IMG/VR virus record: IMGVR_UViG_2529292735_000017
DNA: 46,878 nt
Direction: 5' to 3' (one strand)
Source of the DNA: a virus
Lineage: Duplodnaviria; Heunggongvirae; Uroviricota; Caudoviricetes
A program made the position numbers and the translations under genes. The notes beneath the pieces are model-generated. The model was not told where the DNA came from, did no database searches, and saw only the letters and a list, made by a program, of their open reading frames with translations. Shown here one piece after another: positions 9,015 through 36,022 of the stretch (position 1 is its first letter; each line of letters opens with the position of its first letter).

Positions 9015-10364
9015 TTATTCCGTTTTACATATCATAGTAGTCGATTGGAGAATATAGTTTCTGGGAATGTACTCTTCAAAGTGTTCGTCCTTTTTAAATA
9101 CATGAACTACATTTGGGAATAATTGATAGTCAACAGGGTGTATAGCGTTTGGATTATGGTACATGTACATGGCTGTACACCATGGTTCTTGATAGTTAGG
9201 GTCACTTACATCGGCTGAAAATGGATGTGGGGCTGCATCCTGATCAGTTTTAACACCACTGACGTACACTTTGAATCCACTCGCCTCTACACCTGCAAGA
9301 ATTCCCATCCGGTTAAACTTAGGTATGGTTGCTTGAGTAGTGAGTAAAACGGCAGAAACATAATTATTTTGTTCTGAGCCAAAAAAGTTCGACTTGATAC
9401 TTCTATTTTCATCTGTATGTCTTTCAATAGAAATGCCTGACTCAATATCAATCCCGTACAAATAGCTATGCAAGGCTTCGCTTGAGAAGGCCATGGACAT
9501 TCTTTTTGAATAATCCTGCATTGCTATGACAAATGGTTTGTTCTTTGTATGGTTGAGTTCCCAGTAATGAACTTTCTCTGGCTCAGGGCAATGCCGGACT
9601 TTTTTTAATAAACTTCTTGCAAACTTAAAAGGCATGACATTTAGAACATGTTTTCTTAATTCATCCATCTGTTCATCGTTAATGACTTTTCTTTCAAGAG
9701 GGGCTTCTGCTTCAGCAATGCTTACAGCCTCTACAGCAATTTCCACTCCAAATTTAGATAGCAGAAAATCTGGTTGATTGTATTCTCTATTCATTTCAAA
9801 GTCGAGTTCATAAAATACAGCGTTCAAATATAATTCAAATAACCTTGAATTAAATGCATCACTTTGAAAATCCCTTATAAATATTCCATCAGGATCTTTG
9901 AACCAGTATGCAAGTTCCTCAAGAACAATATATGCAGGGAAATGAAGAGGGTCTTCGAGGAGCATTTTTATATAAACATTCCTTTTTTTCTCTGGGACTT
10001 TACTCAAGAATAATGAAAAAGGTTTGGATGATTCATCGCCTTGCATGAATGTACCATTTTGGTGCTGCGCCAGCATCTTTGGTATGTCATCGTTCAAATT
10101 ATTAAGCAAGACATCCATTGAATCAAATGAAGCCAAGACGTTTATTGCTCTGAATTTTTTATCTAAATCCCGACCTAAGACTATTGCGTTAAAATCTTTA
10201 TCAATATTGCATATGATTATTGTGGATAACAATGTTATCCCATTCCCCTCATATTTAAACCAGCGTATCTCCTCAGAAAATGTCTTAAGGTAAGGTGAGC
10301 GACCGTAAAAATAAATATCAAATTGTTCTTTGCTGATCTCACTGAAGTGTAATCCTGCGTTCAT
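9015..10364 (-). CDS. Uncharacterised 449-aa protein (orphan moron; candidate defence/accessory gene)
   Basis: Long uninterrupted ORF on the strand opposite all flanking phage genes; visibly AT-rich; no Walker A, HExxH or other motif I can assign. Confidence 0.8.
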   Translation of the reverse strand: MNAGLHFSEISKEQFDIYFYGRSPYLKTFSEEIRWFKYEGNGITLLSTIIICNIDKDFNAIVLGRDLDKKFRAINVLASFDSMDVLLNNLNDDIPKMLAQHQNGTFMQGDESSKPFSLFLSKVPEKKRNVYIKMLLEDPLHFPAYIVLEELAYWFKDPDGIFIRDFQSDAFNSRLFELYLNAVFYELDFEMNREYNQPDFLLSKFGVEIAVEAVSIAEAEAPLERKVINDEQMDELRKHVLNVMPFKFARSLLKKVRHCPEPEKVHYWELNHTKNKPFVIAMQDYSKRMSMAFSSEALHSYLYGIDIESGISIERHTDENRSIKSNFFGSEQNNYVSAVLLTTQATIPKFNRMGILAGVEASGFKVYVSGVKTDQDAAPHPFSADVSDPNYQEPWCTAMYMYHNPNAIHPVDYQLFPNVVHVFKKDEHFEEYIPRNYILQSTTMICKTE

Positions 10365-31447: not shown

Positions 31448-31457
31448 GGAGGTGGTA

Positions 31458-32201
31458 ATGACCACACCAAATCCACTGGCAAAGACGAAAGGTGCGGGGA
31501 CGACGTTCTGGATGTATACCGGCAACGGCGATGCGTTTGCGAACCCTTTGTCGGACACTGACTGGCTGCGTCTTGCGATGGTGAAGGATCTGCAACCTGG
31601 CGAAATGACCGCTGATGCAGAAGATGACACTTATCTCGATGATGAAGATGCAGACTGGAAAACGACAACCCAGGGGCAGAAATCCGTTGGTGATACTTCG
31701 GCGACGCTGGCCTGGCGTCCGGGTGACAGCGGGCAGAAAAAACTGGTTCAGTTGTTCGACTCCGGTGAAGTCTGCGCGTTTCGTATCAAATATCCCAACG
31801 GCACTGTTGATGTTTTCCGTGGCTGGCTGAGCTCACTGGGTAAAACCATTGCCTCAAAAGACGTGATGACCCGCACTGTGAAAATCAGCGGTGTGGGGCG
31901 TCCGTATCTGGCAGAGGAAGGCACTGAAACCGTGAGCGTTACCGGGCTGACAGTATCACCGGCGTCTGCCAGTGTAAAAGTGGGAGCAACCACCACGCTG
32001 ACCTTTACAGTAAAACCTGACGGAGCCAGTGACAAAGCGATCAGTGTGCATTCGTCAGATCCACAGACTGCCACGGTTACCCTGAACGGACTTGTGGCCA
32101 CGGTAAAAGGCGTGAAGCAGGGCAGTGTCAGCATTGTGGGCATGACCGCTGACGGGAATTTTGTGGCTGTGACTGCGGTGACTGTCAGCGCAGCAGGTTA
32201 A
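31458..32201 (+). CDS. V: Major tail protein V (with C-terminal Ig-like domain)
   Basis: …NPLAKTKGAGTTFWMYTGNGDAFANPLSDTDW…YLDDEDADWKTT…RIKYPNGTVDVFRGW… closely parallels lambda gpV. Confidence 0.85.
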   Translation: MTTPNPLAKTKGAGTTFWMYTGNGDAFANPLSDTDWLRLAMVKDLQPGEMTADAEDDTYLDDEDADWKTTTQGQKSVGDTSATLAWRPGDSGQKKLVQLFDSGEVCAFRIKYPNGTVDVFRGWLSSLGKTIASKDVMTRTVKISGVGRPYLAEEGTETVSVTGLTVSPASASVKVGATTTLTFTVKPDGASDKAISVHSSDPQTATVTLNGLVATVKGVKQGSVSIVGMTADGNFVAVTAVTVSAAG

Positions 32202-32221: not shown

Positions 32222-32245
32222 GCCCCGGTTATGCGGGGCTTTTTT
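32222..32245 (+). terminator. Putative intrinsic terminator between V and G
   Basis: GCCCCG-gttatg-CGGGGC stem-loop followed by TTTTTT. Confidence 0.45.
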
Positions 32246-32258
32246 GCAGGTGGAGAAC

Positions 32259-32648
32259 ATGATGTTTCTGAAACAGGACACGTTTAATTATGAAAAACAG
32301 TCCGTGGTGCTCAGTGAGCTGTCCGGGCTGCAGAGAATTGAATATCTGACGTTTGTTCAGCAGCGAACGGCAAAGTTTGATGCCGGGGAGGGAGAACTGC
32401 CGGAGGCTGAACGACAGATTGCTTTTCTGCGGATGGGGATGGATATCAATGCCTGGCTGGTTTCCCGCTCACTGTGGAATGCGGATCAGTCTAAGGATGT
32501 AGAGACGCTTTGCGCATCCGTTATTACAACATGGTCGTATGATGCCCTGGGTGCGGGGGCGGAGATGGTTCTGTCGCTGAGCGGTATGGGGGCCATTGAT
32601 AATGCCGTGGATGATGAGCATGAGGCGCTGACGCCGGAAAAGTCCTGA
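32259..32648 (+). CDS. G: Tail assembly chaperone G
   Basis: MMFLKQDTFNYEKQSVVLSELSGLQRIEYL… parallels the lambda gpG N-terminus; GGTGGAG RBS. Confidence 0.8.
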   Translation: MMFLKQDTFNYEKQSVVLSELSGLQRIEYLTFVQQRTAKFDAGEGELPEAERQIAFLRMGMDINAWLVSRSLWNADQSKDVETLCASVITTWSYDALGAGAEMVLSLSGMGAIDNAVDDEHEALTPEKS

Positions 32649-32986
32649 CGCGGGAAATGCAGTTTGTCATGCGGCTTGCCCGGGAGTTCCGGCGGGCAGA
32701 CTGGCGGCGGATGCTGTCGGAAATGTCGGCCACTGAGCTTGGTGAGTGGGGCGATTATTTCCGGATGCAGAGCTTCAGTGATGTGTGGATGGATGCGCAG
32801 TTTGCCTCGCTGAAGGCATTGATCGTGAGAATGGTGTCCGGCAGCAGTGATGCTGCGGTGGCTGATTTCAGCCTTTTACCGGAAGAGAACGGGATACCGG
32901 AGCGAACGGACGAAGAACTGATGCATCTTGGGGAAGGTATTTCCGGAGGTGTGCGTTATGGACCAGATAGCCAACCTGGTCATTGA
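32259..32986 (+). CDS. Tail assembly chaperone G-T fusion via programmed -1 frameshift
   Basis: -1 frame is open only from 32624 and runs to 32986 overlapping the G stop; candidate slip site CCGGAAAAG (32634-32642). Confidence 0.55.
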
Positions 32987-35900
32987 TTTGGGGATTGATG
33001 CGGCAGAGTTTAAAAATGAAATTCCCCGTATCAAAAACCTTCTGAATGGTGCAGCCAGCGATGCAGAACGGTCTTCTGCCCGTATGCAGCGTTTTATGGA
33101 GCGTCAGACTCAGGCCGCCCGGCAGACAACGCAGGCAGCTTCTTCGGCTGCAACAGCCGCATCCGTCCATGCGCAGACGGTGGAGAAGAACGCACAGGCT
33201 CATGAACGCATGGCCCGCGAGGTGGAGAAAACCCGCCAGCGCATGGAGGCACTGAGCCAGAAAATGCGCGAGGAACAGGCGCAGGCCATGGCTCTGGCGG
33301 AGGCTCAGGATAAAGCGGCTGCTGCGTTTTATCGTCAGATTGACAGTGTGAAACAGGCCAGTGCGGGGCTGCAGGAATTACAGCGTATTCAGCAGCAGAT
33401 CCGACAGGCCAGAAACAGTGGCGGGATTGGTCAGCAGGATTATCTGGCGCTGATTTCTGAGGTTACTGCGAAAACCCGTGTTCTTACACAGGCTGAGGAA
33501 GAGGCTACCCGACAGAAAGTGGCGTTTATCCGTCAGCTTAAAGAGCAGGCAACCCGCCTGAATCTTTCATCTTCTGAGTTGCTTCGTGCTAAGGCAGCCC
33601 AGCTGGGGGTAAGCAGTGCTGCAGAAGTGTATATCCGCAAAATGGAGCAGGCAGGAAAAGCCACGCATTCGCTGGGTCTGAAAAGTGCAGCAGCCCGCCA
33701 GGAGATAGGCGTTCTGATAGGTGAACTGGCCCGCGGCAATTTAGGGGCGCTGAGGGGATCCGGGATAACGCTGGCTAACCGTGCCGGATGGATAGACACA
33801 CTGATGTCACCGAAAGGCATGATGCTTGGCGGGGTTATTGGCGGTATTGCCGCGGCCGTCTATGGTCTGGGTAAAGCCTGGTATGACGGTCAGAAGGAGG
33901 GGGAAGAATTTAACCGCCAGTTGTCGCTGACGGGGCATTATGCCGGAGTCACTGCCGGGCAGCTGTGGACGCTCAGTCGTGCTATTTCCGGGAATGGTAT
34001 CACGCAACATGCTGCAGCCGGTGCGCTGGCTCAGGTGGTGGGGAGTGGTGCATTTCGTGGAAACGATATCGGTATGGTGGCGAGAGCTGCCGCACAGATG
34101 GAGCGATCGGTTGGCCAGTCGGTCAGCGATACCATAAATCAGTTTAAGCGGCTGAAGGATGATCCTGTAAATGCCGCGAAGGCTCTGGACAATGAGCTGC
34201 ATTTTCTTACTGCCACTCAGCTTGAGCAGATACGCGTCCTTGGGGAGCAGGGGCGGTCCAGTGATGCTGCACGGATAGCCATGTCTGCACTGGCAGAGGA
34301 AACCGGTCGGCGTACTGCGGATATTGATAATAACCTCAATGCGCTTGGCAGTACGCTGAAGTATCTGTCTGATTTGTGGAGTCGTTTCTGGGATGCGGCC
34401 ATGAATATTGGTCGTGAAGACTCGCTGGATGAACAGATTGCCGCTTTACAGGAGAAAGTGTCGCGGGCGAAAAGACTCCCCTGGACGGCATCATCTTCTC
34501 AGGTTGAATACGATCAGCAGCGTCTTAACGATCTTCAGGAGAAAAAACGCCAGAAGGATTTGCAGGATGCAAAAGAGCAGGCAGAGCGGAATTATCAGGA
34601 GCAACAGAAACGCCGTAATGCTGAAAATGCTGCACTGAACCGGATGAATGAAACGGAAGCAGCACGACATCAGCGTGAAATTGCGCGTATTAATGCCATG
34701 CAGTACGCCGATCAGGCTGTCAGGGATGCGGCGATACAACGTGAAAATGAACGTTACGAGAAAGCCCTGGCATCCGGTAAGAAAAAAACACGCGAAACCC
34801 GTAATGATGAGGCCACCCGGTTATTGCTGCAGTACAGTCAGCAACAGGCACAGGTGGAAGGACAGATTGCTGCTGCCAGACAGTCAGCAGGCATTGCCAC
34901 GGAAAGGATGACAGAAGCGCATAAACAGCTTCTGGCTCTGCAGCAGCGCATCAGCGACCTGGACGGGAAAAAACTGACGGCAGATGAAAAGAGTGTGCTG
35001 GCCCGTAAAGATGAACTGATTCAGGCACTGACGCTGCTGGATGTAAAACAGCAGGAGCTTCAGAAACAGACGGCACTCAACGAGCTGAAGAAAAAACAAT
35101 TCAGCTGACCAGTCAACTGGCTGAAGAAGAGCGCGCTCAGCGTCAGCAACATGACCTGGATATCGCCACGGTGGGTATGGGTGATCAGCAGCGACAGCGA
35201 TATCAGGTACAACTGAGTCTTCGCCAGAAATACCAGCAACAGCTGGAGCAGTTGAGGCGGGATAGTGAGCAGAAAGGGACATATAACACGGATGACTACA
35301 GAAAGGCCGAGCAGGCGCTGACGGAGAGCCTGAACCGACAACTGAATGAGAATCGCCGTTACTGGCAACAGCTTGAAGTTGTGCAGGGTAACTGGAAAAA
35401 CGGAGTCCTGCGTGCATTTCAGGATTTTACCGTGGATGCAGATAATACGGCAGAAACAGCAGAACAGGTGTTCTCGTCAGCCTTCAGCAACATGGGAAAT
35501 GGCCTGGCAACTTTTGTCACTACCGGCAAACTCAATTTCAAATCCTTCACCTCTTCTGTGCTGTCAGATATGGCGAAAATCCTGGCGCAGGCAACCATGA
35601 TGAAATCGATAAAAGGGATTGGCAGTGTACTGGGATTTGATCTCAGCAGCCTTTCCCTGAATGCCAATGGGGGGATTTATCAGTCTGCTGATTTGAGTCG
35701 TTACAGTGGCACGGTGGTTAACCGTCCGACGTTTTTTGCTTTTGCAAAAGGCGCGGGTGTGATGGGGGAAGCGGGACCTGAAGCCATTCTGCCATTGCGT
35801 CGTGGTGCTGACGGTAAGCTGGGGGTTGTGGCGGATATTGGGGGTTCAGGTATGGCGATGTTTTCCCCGCAGTACAACATCGAGATCAATAACGATGGCA

Positions 35901-36022
35901 CGAACGGGCAGATAGGTCCGGCTGCCCTGAAGGTGGTTTATGACCTTGGGAAAAAAGCGGCAGCGGACTTTATGCAACAGCAGGCCCGTGATGGTGGTCG
36001 GTTAAGTGGAGCATATCGGTAA
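32958..36022 (+). CDS. H: Tail tape measure protein H; reading frame interrupted in an A6 tract at 35091-35096
   Basis: Coiled-coil N-terminal two thirds to a stop at 35108; -1 frame continues with a gpH-like C-terminus (…GGIYQSADLS…RPTFFAFAKGAGVMGEAGPEAILPL…) to 36022. Confidence 0.75.

What the first reader, a model, noticed from the sequence alone, without database searches (positions are those of the whole stretch)
32624..32648. G/GT tail-chaperone frameshift window with a non-canonical slip site
The -1 frame encoding the T portion is open only from 32624, so the programmed shift must occur in the last seven codons of G. The only candidate there is CCG-GAA-AAG (GGAAAAG at 32636-32642), not the lambda-type GGGAAAG. 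It allows A-site AAG to AAA re-pairing but poor P-site re-pairing, suggesting a variant mechanism or lower efficiency.
Basis: partly seen in the sequence, partly recalled or inferred. Interest (0 to 1): 0.4.

Follow-up and report, generated by a model that had tools for sequence, protein, structure and literature searches.

The report
Known GGAAAAG tail-chaperone frameshift site
This is the place where ribosomes occasionally slip back one base to fuse the phage tail chaperone G to its T extension; its GGAAAAG slip sequence differs from phage lambda's by one base, but it is the commonest form in this gene family and is already annotated in phages N15, phi80 and LLS, so it is ordinary.

Summary
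G (32262-32648, Pfam Phage_TAC_2) ends at TGA 32646-32648. The T part (Phage_tail_T) lies in the -1 frame, which is open only from 32624. The one in-phase slip candidate in the 25-nt overlap is G_GAA_AAG at 32636-32642. It sits at exactly the position of lambda's G_GGA_AAG.

It is not a peculiarity. The window is 100% identical over the 801-bp G/T segment to phage PhiR55_1 (mEp460/cdtI type), and the segment occurs in 1845 of 5426 complete E. coli genomes. Among 67 distinct G/T junctions from Enterobacterales, 50 carry G_GAA_AAG and 7 carry the lambda form. GenBank records of N15, phi80 and LLS annotate GGAAAAG as the -1 slip site.

The base before GAA is G in 35 of 37 lineages although that codon's amino acid varies. 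This argues for two-tRNA slippage, with tRNA-Glu re-pairing on GGA through a central G.U pair.

An SD-like GAGG lies 11 nt upstream. Such elements are enriched at that distance (13 of 37 lineages against 6% in controls). No downstream structure is supported.

Databases annotate G and a 109-aa T separately. The 241-aa fusion is absent from them. That is an annotation gap, not new biology.

The parts
32262..32648 (+). Gene G, tail assembly chaperone (128 aa). An alternative ATG lies at 32259.
   Evidence: Pfam Phage_TAC_2, E 3.8e-40. The exact 128-aa protein is in public databases, named phage tail assembly chaperone G. It lies between the major tail gene V and the tape-measure gene H. GGAG at 32252-32255 is 6 nt before ATG 32262.
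32624..32648 (+). Overlap of the 0-frame (G) and the open -1 frame (T). The shift must happen here.
   Evidence: The -1 frame is closed by TGA 32621-32623 and G stops at 32646-32648.
32636..32642 (+). Slip heptamer G_GAA_AAG (0-frame codons GAA, AAG; -1 frame GGA, AAA).
   Evidence: It is the only in-phase candidate. It sits at the homologous position of lambda G_GGA_AAG and of the annotated N15, phi80 and LLS GGAAAAG sites. It is present in 50 of 67 distinct family junctions and invariant in 29 close haplotypes.
32642..32986 (+). T part read in the -1 frame after the shift. The first codon is GTC at 32642-32644, re-reading G32642. The predicted GT is join(32262..32642, 32642..32986), 241 aa, with junction ...ALTPEK|VLTREMQF...
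   Evidence: Pfam Phage_tail_T, E 5e-15. It aligns from its first residue with the T parts of lambda, N15, phi80, LLS, Gifsy and Fels. The invariant Glu at position 5 is encoded at 32654-32656, upstream of the database start codon.
32622..32625 (+). [quoted passage not shown] It is a candidate upstream stimulator (inferred).
   Evidence: It fits the definition of a stimulatory SD-like element in PMC4066793. An SD-like element at 10-13 nt is present in 13 of 37 lineage representatives, against 6.2-6.3% at control in-phase positions. It is present in every member of the window's own clade: Gifsy-1, Gifsy-2, Fels-1 and Citrobacter L019. It is invariant in close haplotypes.
32657..32659 (+). The ATG that GenBank and RefSeq records use as the start of a separate 109-aa 'T' protein. 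Probably not a real start.
   Evidence: It is annotated so in mEp460, PhiR55_1 and RefSeq E. coli. It is not conserved: CTG in Gifsy-1 and Fels-1, CTT in Gifsy-2. The only purine-rich stretch, GGGA, ends 1 nt before it.

Best explanation
This is the programmed -1 ribosomal frameshift site of a lambda-type tail assembly chaperone pair.

Most ribosomes translate G to the TGA at 32646-32648 and make the 128-aa chaperone. A minority, with tRNA-Glu on GAA in the P site and tRNA-Lys on AAG in the A site, slip back one base to GGA_AAA. They then read GTC CTG ACG... to TGA 32984-32986 and make a 241-aa G-T fusion.

By analogy with lambda, the G part binds the tape-measure protein and the T part recruits the major tail protein. 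The low shift rate sets the G:GT ratio.

Shown here: the frames, the domain identities, the homologous position, and nucleotide-level conservation of G1, of the GG dinucleotide and of AAG.

Inferred: that both tRNAs slip, that the GAGG 11 nt upstream stimulates by pairing with 16S rRNA, and the efficiency.
For: Gene order V-G-T-H and the Pfam matches.

The -1 frame opens at 32624. It carries T-family residues from the first codon after the heptamer, including an invariant Glu upstream of the database ATG.

GGAAAAG is annotated as the -1 slip site at the same alignment position in N15 (misc_feature 10027..10033), in phi80 and in LLS. The latter two have joined G-T coding sequences. Gifsy-1 and Gifsy-2 T genes are annotated as parts of a frameshift product and have the same CCGGAAAAG.

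Census: 50 of 67 distinct junctions have G_GAA_AAG.

Of 33 four-fold-degenerate codons preceding the P-site codon, 32 end in G. The product of background frequencies is about 1e-13. The 12 preceding residues are only 18% identical on average.

AAG rather than AAA is at the A site in 33 of 36 representatives, against 36% of Lys codons in the gene bodies. This matches the E. coli rule that X_XXA_AAG motifs are the shiftiest (PMC4066793).

All variants seen keep G_GNA_AAR, A_AAA_AAG or C_CCA_AAA at this spot.

SD-like enrichment at 10-13 nt upstream.

The function and the 30:1 ratio in lambda come from PMC5009743.
Against: No product was observed. Everything here is comparative.

In a purified E. 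coli system G GAA AAG gave mainly 0-frame product and was classed as unfavourable, because of the second-position mismatch for tRNA-Glu (PMC6924986).

No stable or covarying downstream structure was found.

The SD-like element is absent from two thirds of lineages, including N15, phi80 and lambda. The P values treat lineages clustered at 85% as independent, which they are not fully.

The tape-measure gene in this copy carries a 1-nt deletion, so this particular element may not build tails.
Confidence: 0.85

Rival explanations
1. Only tRNA-Lys slips (A_AAG tetranucleotide, in the A site or, after translocation, in the P site). The GAA codon and the preceding G play no part. The protein product would be identical.
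For: A_AAG is the shiftiest tetramer in E. coli, giving up to 5.6% with a strong stimulator (PMC4066793). [quoted passage not shown] Two Morganella junctions have A_GAA_AAG followed directly by TAA.
Against: The base before GAA is G in 35 of 37 lineages despite at least eight different codons and seven amino acids. Heptamer positions 1 and 2 are GG in nearly all variants: GGA, GGG, GGT, GGC. Without a stimulator, tetramers are near background at about 0.15%.
Confidence: 0.12
2. T is a separate 109-aa protein initiated at ATG 32657, as current GenBank and RefSeq records annotate, and there is no frameshift.
For: It is annotated so in mEp460, PhiR55_1 and RefSeq, with more than 1000 contigs carrying the 109-aa entry.
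Against: The ATG is not conserved in Gifsy-1, Gifsy-2 or Fels-1. There is no usable SD spacing. Family-conserved residues, including an invariant Glu, lie upstream of it in the -1 frame. The -1 frame always opens just before a conserved in-phase slip motif. In lambda the T domain works only as part of GT (PMC5009743).
Confidence: 0.02
3. The A4 run causes RNA polymerase slippage, so the frame change is transcriptional rather than translational.
For: None specific. A-runs can cause transcriptional realignment.
Against: The run is only four A. Transcriptional realignment is described for long A or T runs (n > 8 for T, PMC3711429). The conserved features (G1, AAG rather than AAA, phase) fit tRNA re-pairing and not run length.
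Confidence: 0.01

Closest known systems
Phage lambda G/GT programmed -1 frameshift (G_GGA_AAG; Levin, Hendrix & Casjens 1993; Xu, Hendrix & Duda 2004, 2013, 2014, as cited in PMC5009743)
   Same: The same gene families (Phage_TAC_2, Phage_tail_T), the same gene order V-G-T-H, the same alignment position of the slip site, and the same A-site codon AAG shifting to AAA.
   Different: One base differs: GAA instead of GGA in the P site. tRNA-Glu therefore re-pairs with a central G.U instead of tRNA-Gly re-pairing fully. G stops one codon after the heptamer instead of five. An SD-like GAGG lies 11 nt upstream, which lambda lacks.
N15 genes 14/15, phi80 G-T, phage LLS genes 11/12, HK225 GT (annotated GGAAAAG -1 slip site)
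   Same: An identical heptamer in identical phase at the homologous position. The GenBank records mark it as the slippery sequence, and phi80 and LLS give joined coding sequences.
   Different: The T parts are only 40-43% identical. These phages have five codons between the heptamer and the G stop and no SD-like element. They have a CGCCAG/CTGGCG stem 4 nt downstream that the window lacks.
Gifsy-1, Gifsy-2 and Fels-1 prophages of Salmonella
   Same: The closest divergent relatives, at 68-71% nucleotide identity. They have the same CCGGAAAAG(Y)CCTGA, one codon before the stop, and an SD-like AGGA or GAGG 10-13 nt upstream. The Gifsy-1 and Gifsy-2 records mention the frameshift.
   Different: The sequence is otherwise diverged, and the -1 frame opens two codons earlier.
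E. coli dnaX and IS911/IS3 -1 frameshift signals
   Same: The A-site AAG is read by the single E. coli tRNA-Lys, and an SD-like element upstream acts as a stimulator at a similar distance.
   Different: Those sites use the full A_AAA_AAG heptamer and need a downstream hairpin or pseudoknot. None is supported here.
G_GA-class viral -1 sites (insect-specific flaviviruses, umbra-, diantho- and mesoniviruses), listed in PMC5009743
   Same: The first three heptamer bases are G_GA rather than a homopolymer triplet.
   Different: They are eukaryotic ribosome systems with U-rich A-site codons and strong downstream structures.

Membership tests
Lambda-type G/GT tail assembly chaperone with programmed -1 frameshift | The upstream ORF is a gpG-family chaperone located between the major tail protein and tape-measure genes. 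| tested here: met
   Phage_TAC_2, E 3.8e-40. V (Phage_TTP_12 plus Big_2) lies upstream and the tape measure (TMP_2) lies downstream.
Lambda-type G/GT tail assembly chaperone with programmed -1 frameshift | The downstream T domain is in the -1 frame, overlaps the 3' end of G, and has no conserved start of its own. | tested here: met
   Phage_tail_T, E 5e-15. The overlap is 25 nt. ATG 32657 is not conserved and conserved residues lie upstream of it.
Lambda-type G/GT tail assembly chaperone with programmed -1 frameshift | A canonical X_XXY_YYZ heptamer lies in the overlap. | tested here: not met
   The only candidate is G_GAA_AAG, so XXX = GGA. The same departure is seen in 50 of 67 family junctions and is annotated as the slip site in N15, phi80 and LLS. 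The feature as usually worded is therefore too narrow for this family.
Lambda-type G/GT tail assembly chaperone with programmed -1 frameshift | The slip site is at the position homologous to lambda's. | tested here: met
   The T parts align from the first codon after the heptamer, and the heptamers are in register.
Lambda-type G/GT tail assembly chaperone with programmed -1 frameshift | A G-T fusion protein is made at a low fixed ratio and is needed for tail assembly. | not testable with these tools
   This needs a reporter assay, an immunoblot or mass spectrometry. The predicted 241-aa fusion is absent from the public protein collection.
dnaX/IS911-type -1 signal with upstream SD-like stimulator | [quoted passage not shown] | tested here: met
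   GAGG at 32622-32625, with a gap of 11 nt. Enrichment at 10-13 nt is 13 of 37 against about 6% in controls. Its function was not tested.
dnaX/IS911-type -1 signal with upstream SD-like stimulator | A downstream hairpin or pseudokot acts as stimulator. | tested here: not met
   z-scores run from +0.09 to -0.97 for four segments. Clade alifold gives a positive covariation term and pairs the heptamer itself. z-scores across 28 homologues are centred on 0.

The most novel reading that the evidence does not exclude
G_GAA_AAG, not lambda's textbook G_GGA_AAG, is the standard slip site of this chaperone family. It is the very sequence used as a 'hardly slippery' control in ribosome kinetics. In about a third of lineages, including this one, it is paired with an SD-like element at a fixed 10-13 nt upstream, while other lineages have a downstream stem instead. 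This would mean phages set the G:GT ratio with a deliberately weak heptamer plus interchangeable stimulators. I found no paper in the searchable library that describes this pattern, but Xu et al. 2004 could not be read.
Probability: 0.35. Interest if true: 0.3.

Novelty: already known. Interest (0 to 1): 0.15.

Why it matters
Biologically it adds little. The G/GT frameshift is a classic, and the GGAAAAG form has been annotated since the N15 record.

Its practical value lies in annotation. In this very common prophage lineage (1845 of 5426 complete E. coli genomes) public records give G and a 109-aa 'T' that starts at a non-conserved ATG. The real 241-aa GT product is missing from a 15-billion-protein collection. 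Frameshift finders that demand XXXYYYZ will miss the family's majority site.

It is also a reminder that a heptamer classed as unfavourable in vitro is the naturally selected one where only a few percent of shifting is wanted.

Tried and rejected
Downstream stimulatory structure. I folded four segments around and after the site. I folded 28 homologues and ran alifold on the window's clade. No excess stability and no covariation appeared, so I rejected this for the window.

A stem in the N15-type clade is conserved but has no covariation. It is left as a side note.

Literature. Full-text searches for GGAAAAG returned only unrelated primer hits. Xu et al. 2004 (Mol Cell) is not held, so I could not check whether it tabulates GGAAAAG. 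A search for the phi80/Lula genome paper gave nothing useful.

An exact look-up of the predicted fusion protein with either start found nothing.

GGGAAAT at 32652-32658 was considered as a displaced lambda-type site. I rejected it because it lies after the G stop, in the wrong phase (GGG_AAA_T), and is not conserved.

The +1 frame was considered and rejected because it gives no T-like product.

Full report
WHAT IS THERE

The region reads V (major tail protein, 31455-32201), an intrinsic terminator (32222-32245), G (32262-32648), a -1 frame ORF to 32986, and then the tape-measure gene from ATG 32958. Pfam assigns:
- G to Phage_TAC_2 (E 3.8e-40);
- the -1 frame product to Phage_tail_T (E 5e-15);
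- V to Phage_TTP_12 plus Big_2;
- the long downstream ORF to TMP_2.

The 0-frame ends ...ACG CCG GAA AAG TCC TGA. The -1 frame has TGA at 32621-32623 and is open from 32624. Of the seven in-phase heptamer positions in it, only G_GAA_AAG (32636-32642) allows A-site re-pairing (AAG to AAA). The +1 frame yields nothing T-like.

WHERE IT COMES FROM

The 801-bp G/T segment is 100% identical to Escherichia phage PhiR55_1 and 97.5-99.9% identical to mEp460, cdtI, Tritos, Ayreon and others. It is found in 1845 of 5426 complete E. coli genomes.

All of these records annotate G and a separate 'T' of 109 aa starting at ATG 32657. The exact 128-aa G and 109-aa T are in the public protein collection on more than 1000 contigs. 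The predicted 241-aa fusion is not.

COMPARISON WITH RELATIVES

Gifsy-1, Gifsy-2 and Fels-1 (68-71% nucleotide identity) keep CCGGAAAAG(T/C)CCTGA, although the preceding 20 or so codons differ. The Gifsy-1 and Gifsy-2 records describe T as part of a frameshift product.

A protein-level search found T homologues in 195 phage records. In N15, phi80 and LLS a misc_feature marks the slippery sequence for the -1 frameshift. That feature is GGAAAAG in all three. LLS names it in words, and phi80 and LLS give joined coding sequences.

Lambda has GCG GGA AAG at the same place. The T parts of all eight phages align from the first codon after the heptamer. The window's site is therefore lambda's site with one base changed (GGA to GAA).

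CENSUS

I used the T alignment to fetch 78 loci from one genome per species and 80 viral contigs. I located the G stop, the -1 opening and the in-phase A_AAR motif in each.

Among 67 distinct junctions:

| Heptamer | Junctions |
|---|---|
| G_GAA_AAG | 50 |
| G_GGA_AAG | 7 |
| G_GTA_AAG | 4 |
| G_GCA_AAA | 2 |
| A_GAA_AAG | 2 |
| G_GGA_AAA | 1 |

After clustering at 85% there are 37 representatives: 28 GGAAAAG and 3 GGGAAAG.

Other E. coli phage types use A_AAA_AAG (Stx1 and Stx2 phages). A Vibrio phage uses C_CCA_AAA. The 'non-canonical' form is thus the family's norm.

MECHANISM

The codon before GAA is GCG, CCG, CTG, GTG, TTG, ACG, AAG or ATG, which encode seven amino acids, yet it ends in G in 35 of 37 representatives. 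Of 33 four-fold-degenerate codons there, 32 end in G, whereas such codons end in G 30-54% of the time in the gene bodies. The 12 residues before it are 18% identical on average. AAG rather than AAA occupies the A site in 33 of 36, against 36% of Lys codons elsewhere in G.

These are nucleotide-level constraints of the kind expected if both tRNAs re-pair. This step rests on established knowledge of E. coli tRNAs. tRNA-Lys (anticodon UUU) moves from AAG to AAA. tRNA-Glu (anticodon UUC) moves from GAA to GGA, giving C36:G, U35.G and U34:A.

The Atkins et al. review lists X_XX = G_GA among known intermediate heptamers (PMC5009743). In E. coli the X_XXA_AAG motifs are the most efficient, and A_AAG is the best tetramer. 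The tetramer is near background without a stimulator (PMC4066793).

Peng et al. used AUG GAA AAG as the less slippery comparison to G GGA AAG and saw mainly 0-frame product (PMC6924986). The site is therefore probably weak by itself. That suits a system in which lambda needs about 30 G per GT.

STIMULATORS

By the definition of Sharma et al. [quoted passage not shown]

Such an element at 10-13 nt is present in 13 of 37 representatives. The rate is 6.2% at in-phase control positions in the G bodies and 6.3% in the 90 nt just upstream. The binomial P is about 2e-7 if the clusters are treated as independent, which overstates the significance.

The window's whole clade has the element. N15, phi80 and lambda do not.

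Downstream, four folded segments have z-scores from +0.09 to -0.97. Twenty-eight homologues centre on zero. Alifold of the clade shows no covariation and pairs the heptamer itself. I therefore propose the SD-like element as the likely stimulator here. That is an inference, not a demonstration.

SEPARATE INITIATION OF T

This is unlikely for three reasons:
- ATG 32657 is CTG or CTT in Gifsy and Fels.
- The nearest purine-rich stretch ends 1 nt before it.
- An invariant Glu of the family is encoded upstream of it.

VERDICT

It is a known, already annotated variant, and in fact the majority form. What remains useful is the annotation gap and a modest, untested pattern of upstream SD-like elements.

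Noticed in passing
window 35085-35090 (tape-measure gene H, 32958-36022): H is interrupted. The window has an A6 run where mEp460 and PhiR55_1 have A7. The reading frame therefore stops at 35106-35108, and the rest of H continues in another frame to 36022. This is either a homopolymer sequencing error or a defective prophage copy.
   Followed up: partly
window 32222-32245: There is an intrinsic terminator (GCCCCG-loop-CGGGGC plus T6) between the major tail gene V and G. It is also annotated in mEp460, Ayreon and N15. It may lower G/GT/H transcription relative to V.
   Followed up: no
window 32652-32658: GGGAAAT resembles lambda's GGGAAAG, but it lies after the G stop, in phase GGG_AAA_T, and is not conserved in Gifsy or Fels. 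It is a coincidence of the T coding sequence.
   Followed up: yes
window 32944-32986: The tape-measure start (ATG 32958, SD GGAGG 32944-32948) lies inside the last 29 nt of the T frame. It falls within the codons of the conserved GGVRYGP motif of T.
   Followed up: no
L008, L009, L021, L026, L029, L032, L036, L044, L077 (about 12-45 nt after position 595 or 895): N15/phi80-type junctions, with five codons between the heptamer and the G stop, share a CGCCAG(T)/(A)CTGGCG stem 4 nt after the heptamer with a 20-nt loop. It is conserved but shows no compensatory changes. Most of these lack the upstream SD-like element.
   Followed up: partly
L020, L022, L024, L025, L056-L061, L172, L173, L177: Other heptamers occur at the homologous place: G_GCA_AAA followed by TAG (Kluyvera, Ewingella); A_GAA_AAG followed by TAA (Morganella); G_GTA_AAG (Pantoea); A_AAA_AAG (Stx1 and Stx2 phages); C_CCA_AAA (Vibrio phage K245).
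   Followed up: partly
L064-L076, L082, L084-L086, L088: Lambda's own G/T junction (identical over the 350 nt compared in most of these loci) sits on short, often low-coverage contigs of unrelated genome assemblies, such as Kitasatospora, Paenibacillus, Enterococcus, Leeuwenhoekiella, Shewanella and Pseudoxanthomonas. This is almost certainly contamination with lambda DNA.
   Followed up: no
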